From an uncultured delta proteobacterium (GTDB lineage Bacteria > Myxococcota_A > Polyangia > Polyangiales > CAVUEK01): a DNA stretch of 64,000 bases. The stretch covers positions 604,474 through 668,473 of the forward strand of contig CAVUEK010000006.1 of assembly GCA_963740495.1 (NCBI GenBank), given 5' to 3'. The notes beneath the pieces were generated by a model. That model saw only the letters and a program-made list of their open reading frames with translations. It had not been told where the DNA came from and did no database searches. A program made the position numbers and the translations under genes. Positions 30,818 through 48,146 of this stretch are shown in pieces (positions within the stretch are counted from its first letter, which is position 1; every line of letters begins with the position of its first letter).

Positions 30818-30850
30818 TTGACGTGCAATCATTGCAATCATATCTTGGGG
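30818..30850 (+). promoter_or_regulatory. Putative sigma-70 promoter with overlapping 6-1-6 palindromic operator for vapBC
   Basis: TTGACG (30818-30823), 17-nt spacer, TATCTT (30841). Spacer contains perfect inverted repeat TGCAAT-C-ATTGCA (30824-30836). Confidence 0.45.
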
Positions 30851-30853
30851 CAG

Positions 30854-31102
30854 ATGGCGAGCATCACGATCCGCAACCTCGACGAGGCGCTGAAGCGCCT
30901 TCTGCGGATCCGAGCGGCGCAGCACGGTCGGTCGATGGAACAGGAGGCGCGCGACATCCTGCGCTCGGCCCTCTCGCGAGCCCCGACACCACCCCGAGAT
31001 CTCGCGGAGGCCGTTCGGAATCGTTTCGCCCCCTTCGGGGGAATCGAGCTGCCGGAGATCGAGCGAACACCGCCGCGACCGCCGCCGCCGTTCGAGCCCT
31101 GA
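30854..31102 (+). CDS. vapB: VapB/FitA-type antitoxin (plasmid-stability-protein-like DNA-binding antitoxin)
   Basis: MASITIRNLDEALKRLLRIRAAQHGRSMEQEARDILR is characteristic of FitA/VapB. Stop 10 nt upstream of the vapC start. Confidence 0.7.
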   Translation: MASITIRNLDEALKRLLRIRAAQHGRSMEQEARDILRSALSRAPTPPRDLAEAVRNRFAPFGGIELPEIERTPPRPPPPFEP

Positions 31103-31111
31103 GCGAGCCCG

Positions 31112-31531
31112 ATGATCGTGCTCGATACCAACGTCCTCTCGGAGCTCATGCGCCCTGCGCCCGACCCCAACGTGGTCCGATGGGTTTCCACAGAGCCCGC
31201 GACGGCGCTCTTCACGACCACCATCACGCACGCCGAGCTCCTCTTCGGCGTCATGCTCCTGCCCGCGGGTAAGCGTCGACGCTCGCTCGAGGGTGCGCTC
31301 GCTGCCCTCTTCGCGGAGGACCTCGTCGATCGCGTTCTGCCTTTCGACGAGATCGCCGTGCCCGAATTCGCGCGCATCGCGGCCGATCGGCAACTGTCCG
31401 GCCGACCGATCTCACATGCGGATGCGCAGATCGCCGCCATCTGCCGCTCTCGAGGCGCTGCCATCGCCACGCGCAACGTGGCCGACTTCGATGGCGCCGG
31501 CCTCACCGTCTTCGACCCTTTCGAAGCGTGA
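31112..31531 (+). CDS. vapC: VapC/FitB-type PIN-domain toxin
   Basis: MIVLDTNVLSELMRP...THAEL...ATRN..DF acidic PIN residues. 139 aa. Confidence 0.8.
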   Translation: MIVLDTNVLSELMRPAPDPNVVRWVSTEPATALFTTTITHAELLFGVMLLPAGKRRRSLEGALAALFAEDLVDRVLPFDEIAVPEFARIAADRQLSGRPISHADAQIAAICRSRGAAIATRNVADFDGAGLTVFDPFEA

Positions 31532-32442: not shown

Positions 32443-33285
32443 CTACGCCCGCCTTCGCGCGCGCCACACGCCCGGGGTCGTGCCGTGGGTGCTCCGAAAG
32501 TGGCTCACGAGGTGCGAGGCGGAGCTCAGGCCCACCTCGGCGGCGATCGCGTCGAGGTCGAGGTCCGTTCCGCCGAGGAAGTGCTCGATGCGCGCGGAGA
32601 GGTGACAATCGCGCTCGCCGCGGAGCGACGTAGCGTTCTCCTCGAGGCGTCGCTGGAGCGTTCGCTGCGAGATTCCGAGCCTGCTCGCCACCTCGGAGTT
32701 GCCGACGACGCCGTGCTCCCGGAAGACGTCGCGAACGCGGCGGACAATCTCGGGCGTGTCGGTCACCGACGCGCGCAACGCCTCGACCTCGGCGCGAAGG
32801 ATTGGGACGCCGCACCACTCGAATGCCGGCGCCGAGTCGTCCTGAAAGCACGCGAACGGGTGCGGCGGGCGGGCGACCTGCAACGCACCCGCGACGACCA
32901 CGCCGATGAACCCGCTCGGGTGGAGGATCGCTTGCCGCCCGACGTTCGGTCCCCATGCGTGGCGCCGCGCGACGAGGTACGCGAGGAGCTTTCCGAACGC
33001 GAGCACGTCGATCGCCTCGAGGTCGCGCCCATCGACGAACGAAGCATGGCCGGCGAAGCGCGGATCGACGCCCACCTCGAAGAACGGGATCATCTCGGCG
33101 ATGTCGCCTTCGAGCGGCCGGCCCCACATGATCGTGCCGAGCGCACGCGCCTCGTCCTGCCAGTAACAGAAGCAGCGGCCGACGAAGTAGCGACGGCCCG
33201 GCGGCCCTAGAAACGCTTTCGGCCCATACGTCTCGCGGAACGGCGGCCGATGCACAGACCGAGGATATACCAGGCTTCCCGTCAC
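32443..33285 (-). CDS. AraC-family transcriptional regulator
   Basis: C-terminal HTH VASRLGISQRTLQRRL...VGLSSASHLVSHFRSTHGTTP. Confidence 0.8.
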   Translation of the reverse strand: MTGSLVYPRSVHRPPFRETYGPKAFLGPPGRRYFVGRCFCYWQDEARALGTIMWGRPLEGDIAEMIPFFEVGVDPRFAGHASFVDGRDLEAIDVLAFGKLLAYLVARRHAWGPNVGRQAILHPSGFIGVVVAGALQVARPPHPFACFQDDSAPAFEWCGVPILRAEVEALRASVTDTPEIVRRVRDVFREHGVVGNSEVASRLGISQRTLQRRLEENATSLRGERDCHLSARIEHFLGGTDLDLDAIAAEVGLSSASHLVSHFRSTHGTTPGVWRARRRA

Positions 33286-33351
33286 CGCGCCAAGACGTTG
33301 TGGGAACGCGCCAACTCTGCGCAGCGGGCGTGCTCCCGGCTACGGTGGGGC

Positions 33352-34128
33352 ATGCGAACGTCACGCCCGTGCCTGGCTCTTCTCGCGCTCTGTGCTGCGT
33401 GTGGCGACGACACGGCGCCGCCGCCCGGCGACGGTGGGATGCCGACTCGCGACGGCGGGGGGACCCTCGACTGCATCGCCATCTTCGACTGCGCCGGCGG
33501 GTGCGCGGACGGGGACGACCCGTGCGTCAACGCGTGCCTCAATCGCGGCACGGCGGAATCGGTCGCGCAGGCGACCGCGCTCGCGGAGTGCGCGAACGAG
33601 GCCGGCTGCACCGACGAGGCCTGCCTCGCTTCGTCGTGCAGCGACGAGGTCCTCGCGTGCGCGGGGAGCACACCGGCAGACGGCGGCGTGCCCGATGCGG
33701 GTGGCGCATCCTGCACCTCGACCGCGGGCGTGCCCGAGCTCACGAGCGCGCTCACGGGCCTCGCGCCGTCGTACGCGAGCGGCGACGACATCACCGTCAG
33801 CTTCTCGGTCGACGGGGACACGCGGCGCGCGCGGCTCGCCGTGTACGACTACGGCTCGACGACGCTGCTCCTCCAGAACTGGGCCGAAGACGTCGCGCCG
33901 TCGTCGACCGTCACCGCGACCCTGACCGCGGGCGTGGTCGGCGGGCCGAGCGGTACCTACTACCTCACGGTCGAGCTCTGCTCGACGAGCGAGTGCAACA
34001 CCCCCGTCGTCCGCAACACGTACGCTCGGGCCGGAACGGACACGGCGTACTCGGAGACGCGCCTTCTGTCCCCCGGGACCGAAAGCTGCGCCGGCTCGAT
34101 TCCGATCGCACCGTTCACGATCGACTGA
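33352..34128 (+). CDS. Cys-rich lipoprotein, hypothetical
   Basis: Lipobox LALCAACG. Gly/Asp-rich with multiple Cys. Convergent with the radical SAM gene. Confidence 0.5.
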   Translation: MRTSRPCLALLALCAACGDDTAPPPGDGGMPTRDGGGTLDCIAIFDCAGGCADGDDPCVNACLNRGTAESVAQATALAECANEAGCTDEACLASSCSDEVLACAGSTPADGGVPDAGGASCTSTAGVPELTSALTGLAPSYASGDDITVSFSVDGDTRRARLAVYDYGSTTLLLQNWAEDVAPSSTVTATLTAGVVGGPSGTYYLTVELCSTSECNTPVVRNTYARAGTDTAYSETRLLSPGTESCAGSIPIAPFTID

Positions 34129-34167
34129 CGGTGCTCGCCGCGACTCGCGTCGGGCGTCACGTATCGC

Positions 34168-35409
34168 TCAGGAGCCGTCGCGGTCGCGCGGGAGCTGCAC
34201 GCCGATGCGCTCTTGGCGGACGCCGAGCTCGTCGGCCTTCTCGGCCTCCTTGCGGAGCTTGGCTTCGAAGAGGCGCCGGCCGCGGTCGGTGACGCGCCCG
34301 ACGGGTGGGGCGTCGGGCTCGCGCATCTCGGGGGGAGGCTCGTCGTCGTCGTGCTCGCCCGCTGCCCGCGACGCGGCGCGTGCCGCGGCGCGCGCGCGCG
34401 TCTCCTCCATCCGTACGGCGAAGTCCGCCCTCCAGGCGTCGAGCGAGCGGAAGCGATCGCGATAGGACGGATCGCTCGGGTCGTCGAGGATCGCGCGGAC
34501 GACCGCGTCGGGATCGATGAACACGGGCGCGAGCTCGCCCGGATCGTAGCCATTGCCGCGGTCGAAGAGGCCGCCGCAGATGTGCCGGAGCGAGCACGCG
34601 CCGCACGCGTCCGAGTAGACGTGCTCCCAATCGGTCTGGCGCACCGTCTGCTTCGCGTCGAGGAAGTGCACGATGCGCTCCTCGCCCTTGACGATCTTCC
34701 GCGTCTCGGTGCTCGCCCACGGGAAGTCGCTCATGTAACAGAGCGGCACCTTCTCGACGCGAAACGTGCGCCCGCTCTTGTGGAGGAAGCGCATCGCGCG
34801 CGCGAGCGACAGCTCGAAGTCGGCGAGCCGCGGAGTGAACTGGTCCTGGTTCACCTCGGCTCGCCCCATCGACGGGTCGAGGTTGTTCCAGACGAAGTGC
34901 CTGATGAACGGGTGGCGCGCCGTCAGCTCGCGCACGTTGTGGTCCAGATGATCCGCGTTGAGCTTGTTGATGACGCAGTTGACGTTCACGTCGATGCCGT
35001 TCGCGTGCGCGTTGTCGAGCGCCGCGTGCGCACGCTCGAGCGTCCCCTTCGCGCCCCGCAGGCGCTCCTCGATCTCGGGCTTCACCGAGTAGATCGACAC
35101 GTGCACGAGCTGCAGGCCCGCCTCCGCGAGGTCCCGGGCGAAGCCGGCATCCGCGAGCCGATGACCGTTCGTGATCATCCGAACGTGCAACCCCTTCTCA
35201 CGCGCGTAGCCCGCGATCCTCGGAAGCTCCGGATGGAGCGTCGGCTCGCCGCCGGTGAGGATCACGCCGAAGTACCCACGCCCGACGAAGTCGTCGACCA
35301 ACACCTTCATCGACTCGAAGTCGTGCGTGTAGGGCGTCGTCGGGTTCGAGCAGAACCCGCAGAAATGATTGCAGTGCCGAACCACCTGAATGTAGCCGAT
35401 GTTCGCCAC
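34168..35409 (-). CDS. Radical SAM enzyme with C-terminal SPASM/twitch-like Cys cluster and acidic/coiled tail
   Basis: CNHFCGFC (CxxxCxxC). GGEPTL. C-terminal CYMS...DACGACSLRHICGG. Confidence 0.8.
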   Translation of the reverse strand: MANIGYIQVVRHCNHFCGFCSNPTTPYTHDFESMKVLVDDFVGRGYFGVILTGGEPTLHPELPRIAGYAREKGLHVRMITNGHRLADAGFARDLAEAGLQLVHVSIYSVKPEIEERLRGAKGTLERAHAALDNAHANGIDVNVNCVINKLNADHLDHNVRELTARHPFIRHFVWNNLDPSMGRAEVNQDQFTPRLADFELSLARAMRFLHKSGRTFRVEKVPLCYMSDFPWASTETRKIVKGEERIVHFLDAKQTVRQTDWEHVYSDACGACSLRHICGGLFDRGNGYDPGELAPVFIDPDAVVRAILDDPSDPSYRDRFRSLDAWRADFAVRMEETRARAAARAASRAAGEHDDDEPPPEMREPDAPPVGRVTDRGRRLFEAKLRKEAEKADELGVRQERIGVQLPRDRDGS

Positions 35410-35465
35410 GCCTCTTCAGTGTAGCGCGGCACCAGAGACCGCGCGCTGCCGGGTCGCGCGACCGG

Positions 35466-36311
35466 CTACGACCCAGCCGCGACCGCGTCGCGCGCCGGCG
35501 CCTCGGCCACGGTTGGGCTCGCCTCACTCGCGAGAAGAAAGAGAGCCTCTTGGCCCCCCCAATCGGGCTGCGTCGCCTGGCCCGGGCGTAGTGCGACGAC
35601 GGCCGAGTCGGCGCCGTCCGGATGCGAGTCGTACCCGGCGAGATCAACGGCCAGGACCTCCGTTCGCGGCACCATGCGGTAGTCGTTCGAGCCCGCCCGG
35701 GCGAGCTCGGCAATCCGGTGAATGCGCGCGGTACGCCGCGCGACGAGCGCGTACCCCGCCACCCCTACGACGAACAAGAGGAGCGCCGCGCCTCGGCGAA
35801 GCCATCCGGTCGCACCGTCGCCGTCGAAGACGACGAGGGCGAGCACGCCGAGGACAATCCCCCGCGTGGCGAGCCCACGGAGGACCTTCGCGTGGCTCAT
35901 GACGTTCGCGTCGCGGCGCGCGGTACGCGCGCGAGAGATGGGGGTCGCCACGAGGAAGATGACGGCCATGGTCTTGAAGAAGCCGACGAAGAGCGCGCCC
36001 AAGAGGATCGAGCCGAGACCGGTGCCGCCATCGAGCACGATGAAGACAATCTCGAACGCCGCGGCCACACCCCACGCGGAGAGCCCACACGCGACGTCGG
36101 CCCGCTTGTCGTCACGAATCACGAGCGCTGCCCACACGGGGACGAGCGCCATGACGGCCCCTGCGAGCGCGCGAAGAGCATAGGCGCCGAGCTCCTGCGC
36201 AGAGCCAAGCCCGATCATCGCCACCGCACCGGCCAGGGCTGCCCCGGCCGTGGTCGCGACGACGACCGACCGCTTCAGCCCGTCGACGGTGTATCGCTTC
36301 TCGCCCCTCAT
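35466..36311 (-). CDS. Hypothetical polytopic membrane protein
   Basis: Multiple hydrophobic helices. High GC3. Immediately upstream and co-oriented with the radical SAM gene. Confidence 0.45.
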   Translation of the reverse strand: MRGEKRYTVDGLKRSVVVATTAGAALAGAVAMIGLGSAQELGAYALRALAGAVMALVPVWAALVIRDDKRADVACGLSAWGVAAAFEIVFIVLDGGTGLGSILLGALFVGFFKTMAVIFLVATPISRARTARRDANVMSHAKVLRGLATRGIVLGVLALVVFDGDGATGWLRRGAALLLFVVGVAGYALVARRTARIHRIAELARAGSNDYRMVPRTEVLAVDLAGYDSHPDGADSAVVALRPGQATQPDWGGQEALFLLASEASPTVAEAPARDAVAAGS

Positions 36312-36390
36312 CGAGCCTCCAACGCTCCCCGAACCTCACCACATTCCTGGTCGGAGTGACGTTCGCGCCTCACCGCGGCCCGAGCAGACG

Positions 36391-37551
36391 TCACGCGCTC
36401 GCGGGAGGCGTCGTGGACGGGTTGACCCGCGGCAGATCGATCGTGAACGACGTGCCGGTAGCCCCCGTCGAGACCGACACCTTGCCGCCGGCGCTCATCA
36501 CCATCTCGCGCACGATGGCGAGGCCGAGCCCGTCGCCGCCCGTCTTCGTCGTGAAGTGCGGGTCGAAGATGCGGCCGAGGTGCTCGGTCGGGATGCCGGG
36601 CCCGGAGTCGGTGACGCTGATCATCGCGCGATCGCCCATCTCGGCGACCTTGACCACGATCGACGCGACCTCCGGCCCCTGATCTTTCACCGCATGCGCG
36701 GCGTTGAGGAGGAGATTCATGACGACCTGCCCGAGGATCGACGCCTCCATGGGCACGCGGGGCGTTCCCTCGACGATGACCTGCAAGCGCGCGACCTTCT
36801 TGATCTCGGCGCGCAGGATGCGCGCGGTCGAATCGACGACCCGGTCGGCGGCGGAACGGGCAGGCGCAGAAGCGCGGATCTCGCCTTGCCTGAGCCGCTT
36901 CACCATGTCGATGAGCTGCTGCACGCCGGCCGCGCTGTCGGCGTGCGACTCGCGCGCCGACTCGAGCAGTGCGCGCGCGCGGGGCGCATCGCGCTCGACC
37001 GAATCGAGCGCCCCCTCGAGCGCGTGCGCGACCGAATGGACCGTCATCTCGAGCGCCTGTAGGAAGTTGCCCATCTCGTGCGCGATGCCGGCCTCGACGG
37101 TTCGCGCCGACGCGCCCTGCCCCGCCTGGAGCAGCCGCACCTCCATGTCGCGCACCGTGCGCTGGATGTGGACGAGCTCGACCCCCGTCCGCAGCACCTC
37201 GATCAACTCTTCGTTGCGGAACGGCTTCGTGACGTACCGCAGGACCTTGCCTCGATTGATCGCCTCGATCGCCGCATGCATGTCCGAGTGCGCGGTGATC
37301 AGGATGCGGATCGCTTCGGGGCGGATCTCCCGCGCCGCTTCGCAAACCTCGATGCCGGAGAGCCCGGGCATGCGCTGATCGCACATCAAGACGGCGATGT
37401 CCTCGCGCTCGTGGAGGATCCGCAGCGCCTCTTCGCCGTTCGTCGCAGTGATGAGCTCGAACGCGCGGTCGAGGATGTAGCGAACCGTGACGAGATTCCC
37501 CATCTCGTCGTCGACGTAGAGGATGGGGTAGTCCTTGTAGTCGATCGTCAT
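36391..37551 (-). CDS. Hybrid response-regulator receiver / histidine kinase (REC-HisKA-HATPase)
   Basis: REC: ILYVDDE..D..MPG..G...KPF. H-box IAHEMGNFLQ. N-box LLLNA. G-boxes DSGPGIP and GGDGLGL. Confidence 0.8.
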   Translation of the reverse strand: MTIDYKDYPILYVDDEMGNLVTVRYILDRAFELITATNGEEALRILHEREDIAVLMCDQRMPGLSGIEVCEAAREIRPEAIRILITAHSDMHAAIEAINRGKVLRYVTKPFRNEELIEVLRTGVELVHIQRTVRDMEVRLLQAGQGASARTVEAGIAHEMGNFLQALEMTVHSVAHALEGALDSVERDAPRARALLESARESHADSAAGVQQLIDMVKRLRQGEIRASAPARSAADRVVDSTARILRAEIKKVARLQVIVEGTPRVPMEASILGQVVMNLLLNAAHAVKDQGPEVASIVVKVAEMGDRAMISVTDSGPGIPTEHLGRIFDPHFTTKTGGDGLGLAIVREMVMSAGGKVSVSTGATGTSFTIDLPRVNPSTTPPASA

Positions 37552-37657
37552 ACCTCGCTCACACTCGACACCCCGGTAGCACAGGTTATCACGCCGGCGA
37601 TCCGAACGGCGTGTCCTCTTTGAGCTTCGGCGGCACCCAAGTACCCTGTAACGAGAG

Positions 37658-39940
37658 ATGGGTCGTTCGTCGCAGCTCGACCGAGCGGCGCGGGAGCTCG
37701 CGCCGGCCGTCGTCGACGCCGGCGGTCAGCAAGCGAGGCTCGAGACGTACGTCGCAGCGATTCGAGGACGCGGACGGAGCCGAGCGCTCGTCCTCGCCCC
37801 GATCGCCACCGAGGGTCTGCCCAAGGAGATCGAGTGGGCGAAGGTCGTCGTGCTCGCCGCTGACGGCTTCATCCTGCACGCAACCCGCATCGAGGTCGGA
37901 CGCGGAGAGGTCTCGGTGCCTCTCCACGGCGCTCGGCTCACCCCCGCACCGCCCACGCGCCGGCTCACGGTCCGGCGTGCGCCTCGCGATCCGCGCATCC
38001 TCGTCGTGCCGTACGGCGGCGACGAAGTCGACCTCTATGCGTTCCCCGTGCTCGACCTCTCGCGCGACGGCTGCGCCATCGAAGCGTCGCACCCACTGGT
38101 CGCGGGCGCTCAGCTCCAGGGGGTCGAGCTCTGGGGGGACCGGCGGCTGCTGCGTCGCGCCATGGCGACCGTGCTCGAGACGATCCCGTGGCGTACGCCC
38201 GACGGCGATCGCCGCTTTCGCATGCGCCTCTCACTCGCGGAGATGCCCGATTCGTCTCCGCGCGCGAGCGACCGAGTGACCGATCCGACTCGCGTGCGGC
38301 GCATCCTCGAGCTGGCGGCGCTCGTGAGCACACGCGTATCGCTCGAGCTCGTGGGCGGAGCGCGCCTCAGCGGGCACCTCATCTCCGCCGAGTCGGACAA
38401 GCTCAGCGTGCGCGTCGACGAGCCGACGCTCGCGGCGGCCAGGCTGCAACTCGACTTCGAGCTCTTCGGCGTCAGCTACGCGATGGATGTGCGTGTCGTT
38501 CGGTGGTCGAGCGAGCAACGTCTCGTCACGCTCGCGTTCCCGCTCCATCTTCACCGCCGCCAGCGGCGCTATCAGTTCCGGGCCAGCGTGCCGGAAGAGA
38601 TCGCGCTCACGCTCGTCACTCACAATCCCGCGACGGGCGAGGTCATCACCCGCTCGCTGCTCGACCTCTCGTTCGGCGGCGCGAGCTTCGCCGTGGATCC
38701 GGAGAAGGACGTGCTGTGGCCCGGGCTCGCTCTGGAGGCAGGAAAAATCCTCTGGGCCGAGAGGGCCGTCGCCGTCGGCGAGCTCGAGGTCCGGAGCGTC
38801 GACGAGCAACGGATCTGCCGCGTGGAGATGCGCGCACCGACGACGGTCGACTCGCCCGCGTTCGTCGATCTCATGGCACGGTTGCGCTATCCGACGATGG
38901 AAGTGCACGACGGCGCGGACTTCGACGGGATGGTGAAGCTCTACGAAGAGGTCGGGCTCTTCGGCGCGCACATGACGCGCAATCTCCCTCCCGTTCGCGA
39001 CGCCGCGCGCGTCACGTGGAAGCGCATGCATGCCAGCGACCTCTGCCGCACGCTCGTGCAGCGAGAGGAAGGCCGCCTCGTCGCCGCGGTCTCGGCCGTG
39101 CGGGCGTGGGACCAATCCTGGGTGATCCAACACATGGTCGCCTCACCCGACCGGCGCATCCGGAAGCCGAGCGTGCTTCACATGGCGTATCTCGACCACA
39201 TCTTGCCACGCCCCGACGGTCGCTACATGGTCGTCTTCGTCAACACCGCCAACCGGCGTATCACGAGCTTCCTCGAGCGCTTCTTCGCGCTCACCGGAAC
39301 GCCCGAAGCGATCGCGCGCCGCGACATGAGCCTCTGGGTCGTGCGGGGCGGTCGCAAGCGCTCCGGCATCCTTCCGACCATCGGACTGTCGATTCGCTCG
39401 ATGCGCCAGGCCGACGAGCGCGCCGTCGGCAACGCAGCGGAGCGAATGTTTGGCCGCCTCGGAGCGGCCGCCCTCGCCCTTCGTGAAGGTGACTTCGCCA
39501 TCGAGGACACCCGCGCTCAGCTGCGTCGCCTCGGAGTACATCGGCAGCGCCGGAGCTCCCTCATCACCGACCGCGGCTACCCAATCCTCGCGCTCATCGA
39601 GGAGCAATCCGACCCCGGCCTCAACCTCACGTGGCTCCTGAACGCCACGTGGGTCCTGCCCATGCACCCCGAGCGCCGCGGCGCCGACGCGCTCCACCTG
39701 GCCGCCGCGCACATCCTCGGGCAGCCCGCGCAGACCGCCACCGGCGACCGATTCGCCTTACTGCCCGCCGAGATCGAGACCACCGCGTTCGAGCGCGCTG
39801 GCTTCGAGCACGAGGCCGAGGTCAGCGTCCACAGCTACAACCGCGCCGGCCTCCACCGCTGGTACTACTTCATCCGCGAAAGGCGGGACCCGTCGGGCTC
39901 GAGCGCTGAGCCGTCGACGCTGATCGCTCACGCCGGATGA
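37658..39940 (+). CDS. Multi-domain protein with two PilZ-like (c-di-GMP-binding) domains and C-terminal uncharacterised region
   Basis: RxxxR...DLSRDGCAIE and RSLLDLSFGGASFAV PilZ-type motifs. 760 aa. Confidence 0.55.
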   Translation: MGRSSQLDRAARELAPAVVDAGGQQARLETYVAAIRGRGRSRALVLAPIATEGLPKEIEWAKVVVLAADGFILHATRIEVGRGEVSVPLHGARLTPAPPTRRLTVRRAPRDPRILVVPYGGDEVDLYAFPVLDLSRDGCAIEASHPLVAGAQLQGVELWGDRRLLRRAMATVLETIPWRTPDGDRRFRMRLSLAEMPDSSPRASDRVTDPTRVRRILELAALVSTRVSLELVGGARLSGHLISAESDKLSVRVDEPTLAAARLQLDFELFGVSYAMDVRVVRWSSEQRLVTLAFPLHLHRRQRRYQFRASVPEEIALTLVTHNPATGEVITRSLLDLSFGGASFAVDPEKDVLWPGLALEAGKILWAERAVAVGELEVRSVDEQRICRVEMRAPTTVDSPAFVDLMARLRYPTMEVHDGADFDGMVKLYEEVGLFGAHMTRNLPPVRDAARVTWKRMHASDLCRTLVQREEGRLVAAVSAVRAWDQSWVIQHMVASPDRRIRKPSVLHMAYLDHILPRPDGRYMVVFVNTANRRITSFLERFFALTGTPEAIARRDMSLWVVRGGRKRSGILPTIGLSIRSMRQADERAVGNAAERMFGRLGAAALALREGDFAIEDTRAQLRRLGVHRQRRSSLITDRGYPILALIEEQSDPGLNLTWLLNATWVLPMHPERRGADALHLAAAHILGQPAQTATGDRFALLPAEIETTAFERAGFEHEAEVSVHSYNRAGLHRWYYFIRERRDPSGSSAEPSTLIAHAG

Positions 39941-40018
39941 GCCCACGACCGGATGTTCGGCTCGCCTCGTTGCTACTGTCGAATTGTCAGCTATATGGAC
40001 GAGCCTCGCGGACATTCG

Positions 40019-40798
40019 ATGGACGAGCGTTACGACCGCAACATCGGAGTTTGGACCGAAGCCTTCCAGGAACGGCTGTGGCGAGCGCGGGTAGGCATCG
40101 CCGGCAGCGGCGCCGCGGGCGAAGGTCTCTCGGACCTCCTCGCTCGCATGGGTGTCGGCTCGATCAAGATTGCAGATCCGGATCGCTTCGAGCGCACGAA
40201 CATCAACCGTCAAATCGACGCGTCCGAGCAGACCCTCGGCCGCAAGAAGGTCGACGTCGCGGCGGAACGGATCCGGGGGATCAACCCCGACATCGAAGTG
40301 GTCACCTACGACGAGGGCGTGACCGCAGAGAACATCGGAGACTTCCTCGACGGCTGCGACTTCGTCCACGAGGCCATCGACTACTCGGCCCCCGCCGCGA
40401 GATCCTCCTGCATCGAGAGGCTCGAAAGCGAGGGATTATCGCGACGACCTCGGCCGTCGTGGGTACCGGTTCGGTGCTCTTCGTTTTTCTATCCCGACGA
40501 GATGACGTACGAGGAGTACTTCCAGTACCCAGGTGACACGAAGACCTGGAAGCCCCCGCCAAATCGGATCATCGGGATCGAGCCCCCTCTTACCTCGACA
40601 AAGAGCGATTCCTGGGGCGAGTTGCGGTGGGCACGGTGCCCACGACGGCGCCGGGAGCTTGCCTCGCCGGATATCTCGCTGCCGTCGCCTACGTCAGCAT
40701 ACTCCAGGGACAACGCGTGCCTGGAGCTCCGAAGATGGTCCGCGTGGACCTCTGGGGGATGATAGGCGTGACCGTTTTCGACGCGGACGCGGCCAAAT
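40019..40798 (+). pseudogene. ThiF/MoeB-family E1-like adenylyltransferase, at least 3 frame disruptions (about 40395, about 40485, 40560-40640)
   Basis: RNIGVW...GIAGSGAAGEG...DPDRFERTNINRQ in frame +2. ARKRGIIATTSAVVGTGSVLFV in frame +1. C-terminal LAGYLAAVAYVSILQG...DLWGMIGVTVFDADAAK in the third frame ends at 40798. Confidence 0.6.
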
Positions 40799-41628
40799 GA
40801 GTGGCGTCACGCCACTCCACGCCCTCAGCGGACACTCGGGTCGCAGGCTCCTGAAGCTCGAGGGGCCAAACCCCACCGGCTCCATCAAGGACCGGCTCGC
40901 CGAACATCTGCTCACGACGGCCCGCGCGCGTGGCGAGTTGCACGCCGGTCAACCAATCGTCGAGGTCACGACCGGAAACACGGGGGTCGCGCTCGCGAGG
41001 GTCGCCCAACGCTTCGGTAGCCCGCTGGAGCTGATCGTCCCTGAGGGTCTGCCGGATGGCATCTTGTCGCGCCTGGCCCCATATCGGGCAACCGTGACGG
41101 TCATCGACCGGGAGGCTGGCGTGGAGGCCGCGATGCGTCTCGCGCACGAGAGGCGATTCCATGGCTACTACTGGCCCGACCAGTATGGAAACGCGGAATC
41201 GTCGCGGTCGTACGTGGGGCTCGCGAACGAGCTGCGGGTCCATCCCCGTGATAGACGAACTGTTCGCAGCGGTCGGTACGGGCGGGACGATCATGGGTGT
41301 CGGCCTCCACGTGCGGCGCCGCGATCCGCACGTGCGCATCGTCGCCGTCGAGTCATCCGAGATGGACATCGAGGGAATGCGAAATACCCGCATTGCGCAT
41401 CGTGGGAGTAGTGATCTCTACCAACTCGACTTCCCTGACGAGACCGTGCGCGTCACGAGGACGCAAGCGCAGGCGGGGCTCGACGCTCTCCGACGGGAAG
41501 GGATCACCGCGGGCTTGAGCTCTGGCGCGGTATTCCACGCTGCAACGCAGACGATGGCGCACGGAACGACCTCGGTGCTCGTGTCTGCGGATGGACGAGC
41601 AGAGTTGCCCGATCCCACGCGGAGCTGA
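40797..41628 (+). pseudogene. Cysteine synthase (CysK/CysM)-fold PLP-dependent enzyme, frame disruption at about 41240
   Basis: GSIKDR, TTGNTGVALA in frame 0. IPVIDELFAAVGTGGTIMGVG in frame +1. ATGA start overlap with the ThiF-like gene. Confidence 0.65.
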
Positions 41629-41634
41629 TTACTG

Positions 41635-42315
41635 ATGACAGCAAGCGACAACATCTGGACACGGTTCGCCGTCTCCTATGACCGAGTGCTCGGCAACTGG
41701 AGCGAATATCAGCGTCTTAGCGAGGAGATGCGTCGTCACTTACCCAAGAACGGCAAGATCCTCGACGTCGGCTGTGGGACAGGACTGATCGCGATTCCTC
41801 TCACCAAAGACGGCTGCGAGGTCCACGGCATCGACAACAACGACGAGATGCTTGCGCGCGCGCGGCTGAATGCGGGGTCTGCCCTCGGGACGTCGATGCA
41901 CCTGGACAACGGAGATGCCGAGGAGCTTGCCTTCGCGGACTCCTCGTTCGACGGTGTGATCGCAAACAACGTCATATTCTACGTAGCCAGCCCGGCGCGC
42001 ATGATTTCCGAGGTACGCAGAGTCCTGAAGCCCTCGGGCGTCTTCGCTGTCTCGGGACCGACGCCGCACCTGGACATGAGAAAGCTCATCGACCAGATCA
42101 CCCGGGAATTTCGGGAGAGAAACATTTACGACGAGCTCAAAGACGACCTCGAGCACTTCGTCGCGTGCAGCGCGCAGTTGAAAGCGACGGGAATGCCGAA
42201 CGTCTACTGGGCCGCGCAGCTCGAGGCTCTGCTTCTGGAGGCCGGCTTCGACGAAGTGCTGACGTCGCGTGAGGATCTCTATCTCGGAGAGAGCTACCTC
42301 GTCGTCGTGCGTTAG
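41635..42315 (+). CDS. Class I SAM-dependent methyltransferase
   Basis: ILDVGCGTGLIA motif I, acidic loop GIDNNDEM, motif post-I DGVIANNV. Low GC. Confidence 0.75.
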   Translation: MTASDNIWTRFAVSYDRVLGNWSEYQRLSEEMRRHLPKNGKILDVGCGTGLIAIPLTKDGCEVHGIDNNDEMLARARLNAGSALGTSMHLDNGDAEELAFADSSFDGVIANNVIFYVASPARMISEVRRVLKPSGVFAVSGPTPHLDMRKLIDQITREFRERNIYDELKDDLEHFVACSAQLKATGMPNVYWAAQLEALLLEAGFDEVLTSREDLYLGESYLVVVR

Positions 42316-42317
42316 AC

Positions 42318-43973
42318 CTAGGTCGAGCCTTGCACGTGCTCGACGCTGGGTGACATCGACCGCAAATAGTCGTAGTGCTGAGGCATCGCGGAAGCGATCT
42401 CGGCGCTCCGGACCGCTAACTGGGCGAGGGCGCGCTCTCCCATCTCGAAGCCGAGGTGATCGAGCAGCGGGTATGGTCGGCGCGGCAAGCGGTCATACCC
42501 GTCCAAAATGCAGGTGTAGCTGAACGCCGGGAACACGCGCAGCCTCAGCTCGTCGAACACGGGCAATTCGACTCGAAGAGCTCCAGTTTCTCTTGGAGAG
42601 TCGGGGGTAGCTCCACGGAACGTGCTGCCGTCCAGAACTCCGAGTTCGTCCGCTGCGAGAGGACATAGTGCATCACGATGAAATCACGAATGTCTTCGTA
42701 CATCTCGCGCACCGTCTCGTTGTACTTTCGGATTCGTCCGGAGTCGAACGCGAGAGAAGGAAACAACGTCAGAAGAGTGGCCAGCCCGTATTCGATCAGA
42801 AAGATGCCGGTCGACTCGAGTGGCTCGAGGAACGAGGCCGACAAGCCAATGGCGACGCAGTTCTTGACCCACCGAATTTCCTCGTCCGCCCGATTCGCAT
42901 CGGGATGTGCCTCGCATCCGTGTCGGACGCGCGGGGTCCGAGGAACGCCCGCAGCTCTTGCTCCGCGCCTTCTCTTGAAAGCGCACCGCTGCTGTATACG
43001 TAGCCACAGCCGTTGCGGTGCATCAGGGAACGTCCCAGGCCCAGCCGGCGGTCAGAGCAGTGGACGTCGTGTACGGGGCGATCCCATCTCGGTCGGGGTC
43101 GTTCGTTGCTGGTAGCGCAACCGCGGCATCACACAACAGCACATTGCTGTCGCTCAGGAAGGGTTCTTGGAGCGTTCGCTGCAGCAGAGCACCGCGAAAC
43201 CCAGTGCAGTCGATGAAGAGGTCGCCTTCCACATTGGCGCCTCCTTTAGTGTGCAGCGCCTTGATGAAACCCCGCTCATCGAGCTCCACGGAAGTGACAT
43301 CGTCCACCACGTGACTGACACCGCGCTCGATCGCGAGCCCGCGGAGCAACCGCGCCAGGGCGACCGCATCGAAATGATATGCGGTGCTCTGATTCATGTC
43401 CGGATTGCTCGGATGAATGGGCGACTTTCGCGCCATGCAGAGTGCGACGTTCGGCGCGATCATCTCGGCCAGCGATTGCGACGCGCCTTCGAGCCGGCGA
43501 CGATGAGCATAGTGAAGAAGCGAAACGCGCGTACCGATCTGCTGGAAGTACGGACGCTCGAATGGAAGTACCGCAGGCTCGGGGCGTTGCGTGAACGGAT
43601 GCCAGAAGTGGTCGTCGGTCTTTCGGGCGGGATCGACCCAATCCACGAACTTGATCGCTGCCTTATATGTCGCACCCACCTTTGGCATCCACTCCGCGTC
43701 CGCGAGGCCGATGAAGCCGAGCGTCGTCCTGAGAGTCGGGATCGTCGCCTCCCCCACCCCCACTCCTGGAATGTCCTTAGACTCGACTAACGTGATCGCG
43801 ATCGACTCGCCCAGGGCCCTTTGCAGATAGGTCGCCGATAGCCAGCCCGCGGTTCCGCCGCCGACTATCACGATTCGCTCGATCCGACCGTCCATCACTC
43901 GCGGATAGCCGACAACATGTGCGTTCGCAAGGGCGCTGAGTACGCGTAGGGTTGCAGAGGCTTCGTACGGCAC
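42318..43973 (-). pseudogene. Flavin-dependent tryptophan-halogenase-family protein, at least 3 frame disruptions (about 43015, about 42850, about 42555)
   Basis: GGGTAGW and GEATIP in ORF 43023..43973. GYVYSSGALSREGAEQEL in ORF 42796..43023. SFLEPLESTGIF in ORF 42545..42844. C-terminus in ORF 42318..42566. Confidence 0.7.
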
Positions 43974-46991: not shown

Positions 46992-48146
46992 ATGATCGAC
47001 TATCGCGCTTACCCCGTTCTGTACGTCGACGATGAGCGCGCCAATCTCGTAGCCGTACGCTACGCGCTCGACGGAATGTTCGAGCTGCTCACGGCTTCGA
47101 ACGGAGAGGAAGCGCTGCGGCTCCTCGCCGAGAACTCCGCGATCGCCGTGCTCCTCTGCGACCAGCGCATGCCGGGGATGGACGGCGTCTCCGTGTGCGA
47201 GGCAGCCCGCCGCGTTCGGCCGGACGCGATTCGGATCATGATCTCGGCTTACGCAGATCTTCACGCCGCGATCGATGCCATCAACCGCGGTCAGGTGTCG
47301 CGCTACGTTCGCAAGCCGTTTCAGAACGAGGACCTCGTCGAGATCCTGCGCACCGCGATCGAGCTCGTGCACATCCAGCGAACGCTCCAAGACATGGAGG
47401 TTCGCCTGCTGCGTGTCGGCCAGAATCCGAGCGGCGCAGCTGTCGAAGCCGATGTGACCGACGAGCTCGCGCGTCTCGTCGGAGAGCTCCGGCTGAAGGC
47501 GGAGCGTTCGTCCGCTCTCGCGGGCGCCGCCGCGCTGAGCCTCGACGAGAGCCCCCCGCGCCCTCGGGAGATCCTCGACGAGATCGCCGAAGTGGCCAAC
47601 GACACGAGCTCGTTGGCTCGTCAGCTCGAGGACTTGGTCGAGCGCCTACGCCAAGCAGAGGCGGAAAGCTCACCCGATGCGTACTGCTTCGTCGACCGCG
47701 TCGTCGAGTCGACGACCGGCATCCTCCGGCCGGAGGTCCAGCGCGTGGCCCGCCTCCGCGTGATCTCCGAGAGCTCACCCCGCGTTCGGATGGACCCGTC
47801 GGTGCTCGGCCAGGTCCTCACGAACCTCTTGCTCAACGCGGCGCAGGCGCTTCACGGACGCTCTCGCGACGACGCCAGCATCACCGTTCACGTCGCCGAG
47901 CAGAACGGCCGTGCCCTTCTCACCGTGAGCGACGATGGGCCGAGCGTCCCACCCGAGCTCGCCGCTCTCGTGCTCGACTCGTCCGTCTCTGGAACGGACG
48001 GCGGAAGCGGCCTCGGCCTGACGGTCGTCCGGGAGATGGTGGCCCGTGCCGGCGGGACGGTGAACGTCGCGTCGAGCGCCGGCGGGACGACGTTCACGGT
48101 GGACCTGCCGCTCCGGCAATCGACGAGCCCCCCGCCGCCCCGGTGA
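46992..48146 (+). CDS. Hybrid REC / histidine-kinase-like ATPase protein, paralog of 36391..37551
   Basis: N-terminus MIDYRAYPVLYVDDE... about 65% identical over 140 aa to the 36391..37551 protein. HATPase motifs LLLNAAQA, DDGPSVP, GGSGLGL. Confidence 0.8.
   Translation: MIDYRAYPVLYVDDERANLVAVRYALDGMFELLTASNGEEALRLLAENSAIAVLLCDQRMPGMDGVSVCEAARRVRPDAIRIMISAYADLHAAIDAINRGQVSRYVRKPFQNEDLVEILRTAIELVHIQRTLQDMEVRLLRVGQNPSGAAVEADVTDELARLVGELRLKAERSSALAGAAALSLDESPPRPREILDEIAEVANDTSSLARQLEDLVERLRQAEAESSPDAYCFVDRVVESTTGILRPEVQRVARLRVISESSPRVRMDPSVLGQVLTNLLLNAAQALHGRSRDDASITVHVAEQNGRALLTVSDDGPSVPPELAALVLDSSVSGTDGGSGLGLTVVREMVARAGGTVNVASSAGGTTFTVDLPLRQSTSPPPPR

What the first reader, a model, noticed from the sequence alone, without database searches (positions are those of the whole stretch)
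34168..36311. Radical SAM/SPASM-twitch enzyme co-transcribed with an unknown polytopic membrane protein, convergent with a Cys-rich lipoprotein
A CxxxCxxC radical SAM core is followed by an auxiliary Cys cluster (CYMS...DACGACSLRHICGG) and a long acidic/helical tail. This architecture is typical of peptide/protein-modifying maturases (SPASM/twitch). There is no obvious precursor peptide, but neighbours are a 281-aa membrane protein upstream (same strand) and a 258-aa Cys-rich lipoprotein ending 40 nt away on the other strand. An AraC regulator and a REC-histidine kinase flank the locus. This is a candidate uncharacterised modification system.
Basis: partly seen in the sequence, partly recalled or inferred. 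Interest (0 to 1): 0.55.

Follow-up and report, generated by a model that had tools for sequence, protein, structure and literature searches.

The report
Orphan HxsC-like radical SAM maturase
The gene is a real radical SAM enzyme from an uncurated, highly conserved myxobacterial (Polyangia) subfamily whose orthologues elsewhere often sit in His-Xaa-Ser peptide-maturation clusters, but here it stands alone and its neighbouring membrane protein and lipoprotein show no conserved link to it.

Summary
The ORFs and motifs are as described. The 413-aa protein (34168-35409, minus strand) has CxxxCxxC plus four more invariant Cys (C224, C269, C272, C278). That fits one auxiliary cluster (twitch-like). 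No SPASM model matches, even at E<=10.

The proposed local system is not supported. The 281-aa membrane protein found only itself among 5.8 billion proteins. None of the window's neighbours occurs in 85 orthologue loci. The intergenic gaps (39, 56 and 79 nt) hold no precursor ORF.

The enzyme belongs to one orthologous group, 66-84% identical across Polyangia. Its nearest named family is HxsC of the His-Xaa-Ser (HXS) system, but it scores far below the cut-off (101 vs 268 bits). Of 42 distinct orthologue loci with at least 6 kb on both sides, 21 carry HXS-type genes within 8 kb, and 15 carry core genes:
- HxsA4 precursors: a leader, then (His-Gly-Ser)7-38, ending in Trp.
- HxsB and HxsD-like proteins.

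Other nearby genes include paralogous radical SAM enzymes, an HExxH peptide hydroxylase and a methyltransferase.

Best reading: an accessory maturase of an HxsA4-type peptide encoded elsewhere in this genome. The window has no HxS-repeat ORF and no second radical SAM gene. This is inferred from family context, not shown for this genome.

The parts
34168..35409 (-). Radical SAM enzyme, 413 aa. Member of a Polyangia-wide orthologous group in the HxsC-like clade.
   Evidence: Pfam Radical_SAM 86 bits. Best NCBIfam hit is HxsC at 101 bits, below its 268-bit cut-off. More than 120 homologues are at least 69% identical over the full length. GC3 is 0.92.
35350..35373 (-). Codons for C13-x3-C17-x2-C20, the SAM-binding [4Fe-4S] motif.
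   Evidence: Invariant in alignments A1 and A2.
34576..34740 (-). Auxiliary-cluster region: C224 and C269-x2-C272-x5-C278, around a predicted beta-hairpin (residues 245-258) and a short helix (267-271).
   Evidence: The four Cys are invariant down to 34% identity. Secondary structure comes from the AF2 model. No SPASM hit.
34171..34512 (-). C-terminal extension (residues ~300-413), charged and helical. Found in the Polyangia orthologues and absent from the ~310-aa relatives.
   Evidence: Alignment A1. Moderate conservation per block. Helices 323-349 and 375-395. In P0121 it links to a second radical SAM domain.
35466..36311 (-). 281-aa polytopic membrane protein upstream on the same strand. 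A lineage-specific ORFan; no evidence of a functional link.
   Evidence: GC3 0.85 and about six hydrophobic segments. No Pfam or NCBIfam family. Only itself found among 5.8e9 proteins. Absent from 85 orthologue loci.
33352..34128 (+). 258-aa Cys-rich putative lipoprotein, convergent with the radical SAM gene. No evidence of a functional link.
   Evidence: GC3 0.90 and a signal/lipobox-like N-terminus. No family hit. Absent from 85 orthologue loci. No His-Xaa-Ser repeats.

Best explanation
The gene encodes a radical SAM enzyme with the SAM-binding cluster and one auxiliary [4Fe-4S] cluster. It belongs to a vertically inherited Polyangia orthologous group within the HxsC-like clade.

Most likely it is one of several radical SAM maturases that act on a His-Xaa-Ser repeat precursor of the HxsA4 type: a leader of about 50-65 aa, then H(C/G)S-(HGS)n, ending in Trp. 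In this genome that precursor and its core partners (HxsB, HxsD-like) would be encoded elsewhere.

Inferred mechanism:
- Reductive cleavage of SAM gives a 5'-deoxyadenosyl radical.
- The radical abstracts a hydrogen atom from a residue of the repeat.
- The auxiliary cluster binds the substrate or handles the electron.

The enzyme has no N-terminal recognition domain, so the C-terminal helical extension may dock a partner enzyme.

Shown: the domain and Cys architecture, the orthology, and the strong genomic linkage of orthologues to HXS genes. Inferred: the substrate, the chemistry, and that this particular genome has the partners. The adjacent membrane protein and lipoprotein are taken to be unrelated neighbours.
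For: 1. HxsC is the best-scoring curated family, for the query and for each of 10 more distant relatives tested.
2. Seventeen of 85 fetched orthologue loci, and two loci of a 47%-identical non-myxobacterial relative (L086/L087), carry an ORF with 7-38 His-Gly-Ser repeats within 8 kb. These ORFs pass the NCBIfam HxsA4 cut-off (107.8 and 99.5 bits vs 55).
3. In L043 the orthologue lies in a same-strand run: radical SAM 303 aa, HExxH peptide hydroxylase (94 vs 40 bits), orthologue, HxsD-like (70 vs 41), HxsB (528 vs 370), HxsA4.
4. In L039 an HxsA4 gene starts 66 nt from the orthologue; in L036 two copies start 224 nt away.
5. In L004 the Pfam-annotated gene list shows no other radical SAM gene within 8 kb of HxsA4 and the orthologue, and L011 shows the same arrangement by similarity. 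Linkage is therefore not only a trace of tandem paralogy.
6. Of 42 distinct loci with at least 6 kb on both flanks, 21 have HXS-type genes and 15 have the core genes HxsA4, HxsB or HxsD-like. By my estimate, chance co-location in a genome of about 10 Mb would be roughly 0.2% per locus.
7. Linked and unlinked loci are interspersed in the orthologue tree, so this is one orthologous group.
8. L086 pairs a true HxsD, an HxsD-like protein and HxsB with a run of six HxsC-like radical SAM enzymes. One of them is the counterpart of the query type (47% identity) and another is the counterpart of the Polyangia 575-602-aa type (43%).
9. Fusion proteins carry 2-3 tandem radical SAM domains of this clade. 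P0121 is the query type, including its tail, fused to a second domain.
10. Genetic and mass-spectrometric work on E. coli HXS shows that HxsB, HxsC and HxsD are needed to process HxsA, and that both Cys clusters of HxsC matter (PMC13128918).
Against: - The 64-kb window has no HxS-repeat ORF, no HxsA4 leader match and no second radical SAM gene.
- The rest of the genome could not be examined.
- Half of the well-flanked orthologue loci, including every member of the window's own sub-clade, show no HXS neighbour.
- The scores against HxsC and HxsC4 are far below the cut-offs.
- The very high conservation (66-84% identity) is unusual for a peptide-maturase or defence gene and could point to a different, housekeeping substrate.
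- No biochemical data exist for this subfamily or for HxsA4 systems.
Confidence: 0.55

Rival explanations
1. A housekeeping radical SAM enzyme with a substrate unrelated to His-Xaa-Ser peptides, such as a conserved protein, RNA, lipid or cofactor. On this view its frequent position near HXS genes only reflects descent from a tandem array of paralogues.
For: - It is 66-84% identical across Polyangia and each fetched locus holds a single copy.
- In half of the well-flanked loci, in the window and in the window's whole sub-clade it stands alone among unrelated genes.
- The 43%-identical relative P0130 sits among housekeeping genes with no HXS neighbour.
Against: - It is directly adjacent to HxsA4 in loci that show no other radical SAM gene (L004 by its Pfam gene list; L011 by similarity).
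- In L043 it lies inside a same-strand run, between a peptide hydroxylase and the HxsD-like and HxsB genes.
- The same pairing is seen in the distant L086 cluster.
- No curated cofactor or RNA-modification family is approached.
Confidence: 0.25
2. Part of an HXS-type antiphage defence, like E. coli HxsABCD. The matured His-Xaa-Ser protein would block phage DNA entry in the periplasm.
For: - The parts are homologous to the E. coli system: HxsB, HxsD-like, HxsC-like enzymes and HxS repeats.
- That system has been shown to defend against phage (PMC13128918).
Against: - The orthologue is near-universal and strongly conserved in the Polyangia loci examined, which is unlike patchy defence genes.
- HxsA4 is a short leader-plus-repeat peptide, and no peptidoglycan-binding domain was seen in it, unlike HxsA.
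- The canonical system is 99.7% in Pseudomonadota, with a fixed four-gene order.
- The only PADLOC matches are generic viperin hits over the N-terminal half.
- The window shows no obvious defence-island features around the gene.
Confidence: 0.1
3. One reading: a local modification system in which the radical SAM enzyme acts with, or on, the co-transcribed membrane protein and/or the convergent Cys-rich lipoprotein.
For: - The REC-kinase, membrane protein and radical SAM genes lie on the same strand with gaps of 79 and 56 nt, and no terminator-like site lies between them.
- Secreted, Cys-containing proteins also lie near orthologues in some other loci: a lipoprotein in L004, a 985-aa Cys-repeat protein in L035, and TAT-signal proteins in L012-L016.
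Against: - The membrane protein is an ORFan.
- Neither neighbour, nor the AraC or PilZ genes, occurs in any of 85 orthologue loci.
- Relatives at 76-82% identity have other neighbours.
- A protein this strongly conserved is unlikely to depend on partners found only in this genome.
- Secreted Cys-rich proteins are, to my knowledge, very common in myxobacteria, and those found near orthologues are not homologous to one another.
Confidence: 0.05

Closest known systems
HxsC, the radical SAM maturase of the His-Xaa-Ser (HXS) system (NCBIfam TIGR03977; E. coli system studied in PMC13128918)
   Same: - It is the best-scoring curated family, aligned over residues 7-232.
- Both have a radical SAM core plus a second Cys cluster containing CxxC about 235-255 residues downstream.
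- Orthologues are linked to HxsB, HxsD-like and HxS-repeat genes.
   Different: - It scores 101 bits against a cut-off of 268.
- It has no N-terminal domain: the first Cys is residue 13, against C105 in E. coli HxsC.
- It carries an extra ~100-aa C-terminal extension.
- In this genome it is not adjacent to HxsB, HxsA or HxsD.
- Orthologues belong to clusters with several radical SAM enzymes, not to the four-gene HxsD-B-C-A unit.
The type-4 His-Xaa-Ser set curated in NCBIfam: HxsA4 (NF038313), HxsC4 (NF038332) and HxsD-like (NF038315)
   Same: The precursors and small proteins next to orthologues pass the HxsA4 and HxsD-like cut-offs.
   Different: - The query scores only 64 bits against the HxsC4 cut-off of 500, so it is another, uncurated paralogue line.
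- No paper in the searched library mentions HxsA4 or HxsC4.
Twitch-domain radical SAM enzymes (BlsE, SkfB, MoaA) and SPASM enzymes (anSME, PqqE)
   Same: - The auxiliary Cys lie after the barrel, around a beta-hairpin and a helix.
   Different: - Sequence identity is only 13-20%.
- There is no SPASM model hit and no seven-Cys motif.
- Scores against all these families are far below the cut-offs.

Membership tests
Radical SAM superfamily (PF04055) | CxxxCxxC motif within a partial TIM barrel, with a score above the Pfam gathering threshold | tested here: met
   [not shown]
SPASM domain (PF13186 / TIGR04085) | C-terminal seven-Cys motif that binds two auxiliary [4Fe-4S] clusters, with a model hit | tested here: not met
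   No SPASM hit in Pfam, even at E<=10. Only four conserved Cys lie beyond the SAM cluster.
Twitch-type radical SAM | A single auxiliary cluster held by about 3-4 Cys on a shortened beta-hairpin-plus-helix domain after the barrel | tested here: inconclusive
   Four invariant Cys (224, 269, 272, 278) and a predicted hairpin (245-258) plus helix (267-271) fit. However, model confidence there is low (pLDDT 42-55), and cluster binding cannot be tested in silico.
HxsC (TIGR03977) | Score at or above the curated equivalog cut-off of 267.9 bits | tested here: not met
   101.2 bits.
HxsC (TIGR03977) | Encoded next to HxsB, HxsD and an HxS-repeat protein | tested here: not met
   None of these is present in the 64-kb window. 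The feature is met for orthologues in 15 of 42 well-flanked loci.
HxsC4 (NF038332) | Score at or above 500 bits | tested here: not met
   64.4 bits.
Anaerobic sulfatase maturase (TIGR03942) | Equivalog-level score, a SPASM domain and a sulfatase gene nearby | tested here: not met
   [not shown]
Cofactor or antiviral radical SAM enzymes (MoaA, heme b synthase AhbD, NirJ, PqqE, viperin) | Score at or above the curated cut-off | tested here: not met
   MoaA 69.8 vs 284; AhbD 76.6 vs 500; NirJ 63.2 vs 515; PqqE 59.3 vs 381; prokaryotic viperin 58.6 vs 180.

The most novel reading that the evidence does not exclude
Polyangia may carry an ancient, vertically inherited pathway with several radical SAM enzymes. 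It would include the query type, a 575-602-aa type, 300-aa types, HxsB, an HExxH hydroxylase and a methyltransferase. Together they would convert a (His-Gly-Ser)n-Trp precursor into a heavily modified peptide or protein of a class not yet described, possibly a metal-binding or envelope component and not a phage-defence effector. The strongly conserved query-type enzyme would carry out one dedicated step and would work in trans even where its gene has left the cluster, as it has here.
Probability: 0.35. Interest if true: 0.65.

Novelty: new variant of a known kind. Interest (0 to 1): 0.4.

Why it matters
The first experimental account of an HXS system found in the searched library dates from 2026 (antiphage defence in E. 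coli), and the chemistry of HxsB and HxsC remains unsolved.

A separate HxsC-like subfamily that is conserved across the Polyangia loci examined and linked to (HGS)n-Trp precursors and several further radical SAM enzymes would have three consequences:
- It extends the HXS theme beyond Pseudomonadota.
- It suggests a role that may not be defence.
- It offers a defined precursor and enzyme set for working out the chemistry.

For genome annotation, the result gives a testable functional context to a gene now labelled only 'radical SAM protein'. It also shows that the apparent operon partners in this window are incidental.

Tried and rejected
- Hidden precursor ORFs: the gaps next to the gene are 39, 56 and 79 nt. 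All 20-100-codon ORFs overlapping 34100-34200 or 35400-36420 have non-coding GC3 patterns and lie inside or antisense to real genes.
- Rfam, whole window: no match.
- Promoter and terminator consensus scans, 33000-37800: nothing found, which is uninformative for a myxobacterium. Inverted repeats gave only weak GC-rich hairpins.
- PDB sequence search: best E about 1e-8, covering the N-terminal half only.
- PADLOC: only generic viperin hits to the radical SAM core.
- Window neighbours in related loci: no hit for the membrane protein, lipoprotein, AraC, PilZ protein, SPFH protein or PIN/antitoxin pair. The REC-kinase gave one weak receiver-domain hit.
- HxsA4 leaders, HxsB, HxsD and all cluster radical SAM enzymes searched against the window: only the query gene itself is hit.
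- Identifying the source genome: the exact-protein look-up found no contig and the cluster look-up gave no names.
- The third large protein search was deliberately not spent. Finding this genome's own HxsB among the best 120 hits looked unlikely.
- L004's 512-aa upstream protein as a possible conserved partner: it occurs only in L004, L005 and L011.

Full report
**1. What is at the locus**

ORF 34168-35409 (minus strand, 413 aa) is a real gene.
- Its third-position GC is 0.92, against 0.68 for the overlapping antisense ORF.
- It matches Pfam Radical_SAM at 86 bits.
- Its start cannot lie further upstream, and homologues begin with the same MANIGYIQ.

I aligned 20 sequences reaching down to 34% identity. 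The invariant cysteines are C13, C17 and C20 (CxxxCxxC) and four more: C224, C269, C272 and C278. Four extra Cys fit one auxiliary [4Fe-4S] cluster.

No SPASM model matches, even at E<=10, so the SPASM label is not supported. 'Twitch-like' is the better description. It is consistent with a predicted beta-hairpin (245-258) and a short helix (267-271) in an AlphaFold2 model (mean pLDDT 74.7, pTM 0.79). Confidence around the cluster loops is low, however.

Residues ~300-413 form a charged extension with two long predicted helices. It is moderately conserved.

The neighbours are also as described:
- A 281-aa protein with about six hydrophobic segments lies 56 nt upstream on the same strand.
- A 258-aa Cys-rich putative lipoprotein converges on the gene, 39 nt from its stop codon.
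- An AraC-type regulator and a REC-HATPase kinase flank the locus.

**2. The neighbours do not form a conserved system**

- The membrane protein has no Pfam or NCBIfam family and retrieved only itself from 5.8 billion proteins.
- The radical SAM enzyme, in contrast, has more than 120 homologues at 69-84% identity over its full length.
- A genome scan returned 80 orthologue loci at 66-78% identity. Most record titles name Polyangia-type myxobacteria: Polyangiales, Nannocystaceae, Sandaracinaceae, Minicystis, Plesiocystis, Enhygromyxa, Labilithrix, Byssovorax.
- tblastn with the membrane protein, lipoprotein, AraC, PilZ protein, SPFH protein and the PIN/antitoxin pair found nothing in 85 loci. 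The REC-kinase gave one weak receiver-domain hit.
- Called genes around orthologues differ from genome to genome, and this holds even for relatives at 82% and 76% identity.
- The intergenic gaps are 39, 56 and 79 nt, and no small ORF there looks coding.

**3. What the enzyme is related to**

No curated family is reached. The best is HxsC, the radical SAM maturase of the His-Xaa-Ser system, at 101 bits against a cut-off of 268. Scores for HxsC4, MoaA, heme b synthase AhbD, NirJ, PqqE and viperin are all far below their cut-offs.

A search of cluster representatives showed that the conserved core is residues 1-310. Many ~310-aa relatives are 35-48% identical, and many 600-1400-aa proteins carry two or three tandem copies of this domain. 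HxsC was again the top curated family for each of 10 relatives tested.

**4. The informative context is in other genomes**

The 47%-identical relative P0128 lies in a cluster (L086) with these genes:
- a true HxsD (55 vs 50 bits);
- an HxsD-like protein (74.5 vs 41);
- HxsB (482 vs 370);
- a 176-aa protein ending in HCS(HGS)n;
- six HxsC-like radical SAM genes.

A six-frame scan of the Polyangia loci found ORFs with 7-38 consecutive His-Gly-Ser repeats within 8 kb of the orthologue in 17 of 85 loci. It found none in the window. These ORFs have a leader of about 50-65 aa, then H(C/G)S-(HGS)n, and end in Trp. They pass the NCBIfam HxsA4 cut-off (107.8 and 99.5 bits vs 55).

In L043 the orthologue sits in a same-strand run:
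- radical SAM enzyme, 303 aa;
- aKG-HExxH peptide beta-hydroxylase (94 vs 40 bits);
- the orthologue;
- HxsD-like protein (70 vs 41);
- HxsB (528 vs 370);
- HxsA4.

Other loci show equally close linkage.
- In L039 an HxsA4 gene begins 66 nt from the orthologue.
- In L036 two HxsA4 copies lie 224 nt away.
- In L004 the Pfam-annotated gene list shows no other radical SAM gene within 8 kb of HxsA4 and the orthologue, and L011 looks the same by similarity.

Counting distinct loci with at least 6 kb on both flanks, 21 of 42 have some HXS-type gene within 8 kb, and 15 of 42 have HxsA4, HxsB or HxsD-like. By my own estimate, chance co-location in a genome of about 10 Mb would be roughly 0.2% per locus.

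In a neighbour-joining tree of the orthologues, linked and unlinked loci are interspersed, so this is one orthologous group. The window falls in a sub-clade (L003, L006, L007, L009, L010, L027) whose members are all unlinked, next to linked sister groups.

Pairwise comparison shows that two paralogue lines are shared between Polyangia and the distant L086 cluster: the query type (47%) and the 575-602-aa type (43%). The multi-enzyme set is therefore old.

**5. How it most likely works**

E. coli HXS needs HxsB, HxsC and HxsD to process the HxS-repeat protein HxsA. Mutating either Cys cluster of HxsC impairs processing. The chemistry itself is unresolved (PMC13128918).

By homology and linkage, the window's enzyme is most likely an accessory radical SAM maturase acting on an HxsA4-type repeat peptide encoded elsewhere in the genome.
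- It lacks the N-terminal region of HxsC.
- It has a C-terminal helical extension instead.
- In the fusion protein P0121 that extension connects to a second radical SAM domain.

A role for the extension in docking partner enzymes is plausible but inferred. The substrate, the reaction and the presence of partners in this genome are also inferences. I put this reading at about 0.55.

**6. Rival readings**

- *An unrelated housekeeping substrate (0.25).* The very high conservation and the many isolated loci favour it. The HxsA4 adjacency in loci with no other radical SAM gene, and the position inside the L043 run, weigh against it.
- *An antiphage role like E. coli HXS (0.1).* This is possible, but it does not sit well with near-universal vertical conservation in the loci examined or with the different form of the precursor. 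The canonical system is 99.7% in Pseudomonadota.

**7. Novelty**

HXS systems and the HxsA4, HxsC4 and HxsD-like models are known and curated. No paper in the searched library mentions the type-4 set, and no curated model captures this subfamily. I rate it a new variant of a known kind, of moderate interest. The window itself holds only the isolated enzyme.

Noticed in passing
window 39953-43973: A lower-GC stretch (0.61-0.65, against about 0.70 around it) holds fragmented genes. These are the N-terminal half of a ThiF-family enzyme, a fragment of a PLP-dependent enzyme, an intact SAM methyltransferase, and a tryptophan halogenase split into at least two pieces on the minus strand (profile positions 1-267 and 328-419). 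It is either a decayed small biosynthetic island or a run of indel errors in the assembly.
   Followed up: partly
window 30818-31531: A FitA-like ribbon-helix-helix antitoxin (30818-31102, +) is followed 9 nt later by a PIN-domain toxin (31112-31531, +). This is a VapBC/FitAB-type toxin-antitoxin pair.
   Followed up: partly
window 46992-48146 and 36391-37551: Two paralogous REC-plus-HATPase proteins of about 385 aa have near-identical N-termini (MIDYRAYPVLYVDDE / MTIDYKDYPILYVDDE). They lie on opposite strands about 10 kb apart.
   Followed up: no
L004, L011, L013, L014, L029, L035, L036, L043, L051, L061, L062 (HxsA4 ORFs): The HxsA4 precursors of Polyangia share a leader motif (LP-x-F/L..., EQREISD-like). 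They end in H(C/G)S-(HGS)n-W with n from 7 to 38. Several contigs (L012, L016, L019) break inside the repeat, so such genes are probably under-assembled in MAGs.
   Followed up: partly
L012 9572-10354, L014 9572-10255, L016 7954-8664: A conserved protein of about 230-260 aa with a twin-arginine-like signal (WNRRQFLSGLL...) lies directly downstream of the orthologue in five or six loci, between it and the 600-aa radical SAM gene. Its function is unknown.
   Followed up: no
L001 9586-10001 (Minicystis rosea): Two small ORFs (47 and 91 aa) overlap at stop and start and lie immediately upstream of the orthologue, after a radical SAM gene, a methyltransferase and a second radical SAM gene. The 91-aa ORF recurs only in L036 (58% identity).
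   Followed up: partly
window 35466-36311: The 281-aa membrane protein has coding-type codon usage but no detectable homologue in 5.8 billion proteins. It is a genuine lineage-specific ORFan.
   Followed up: yes
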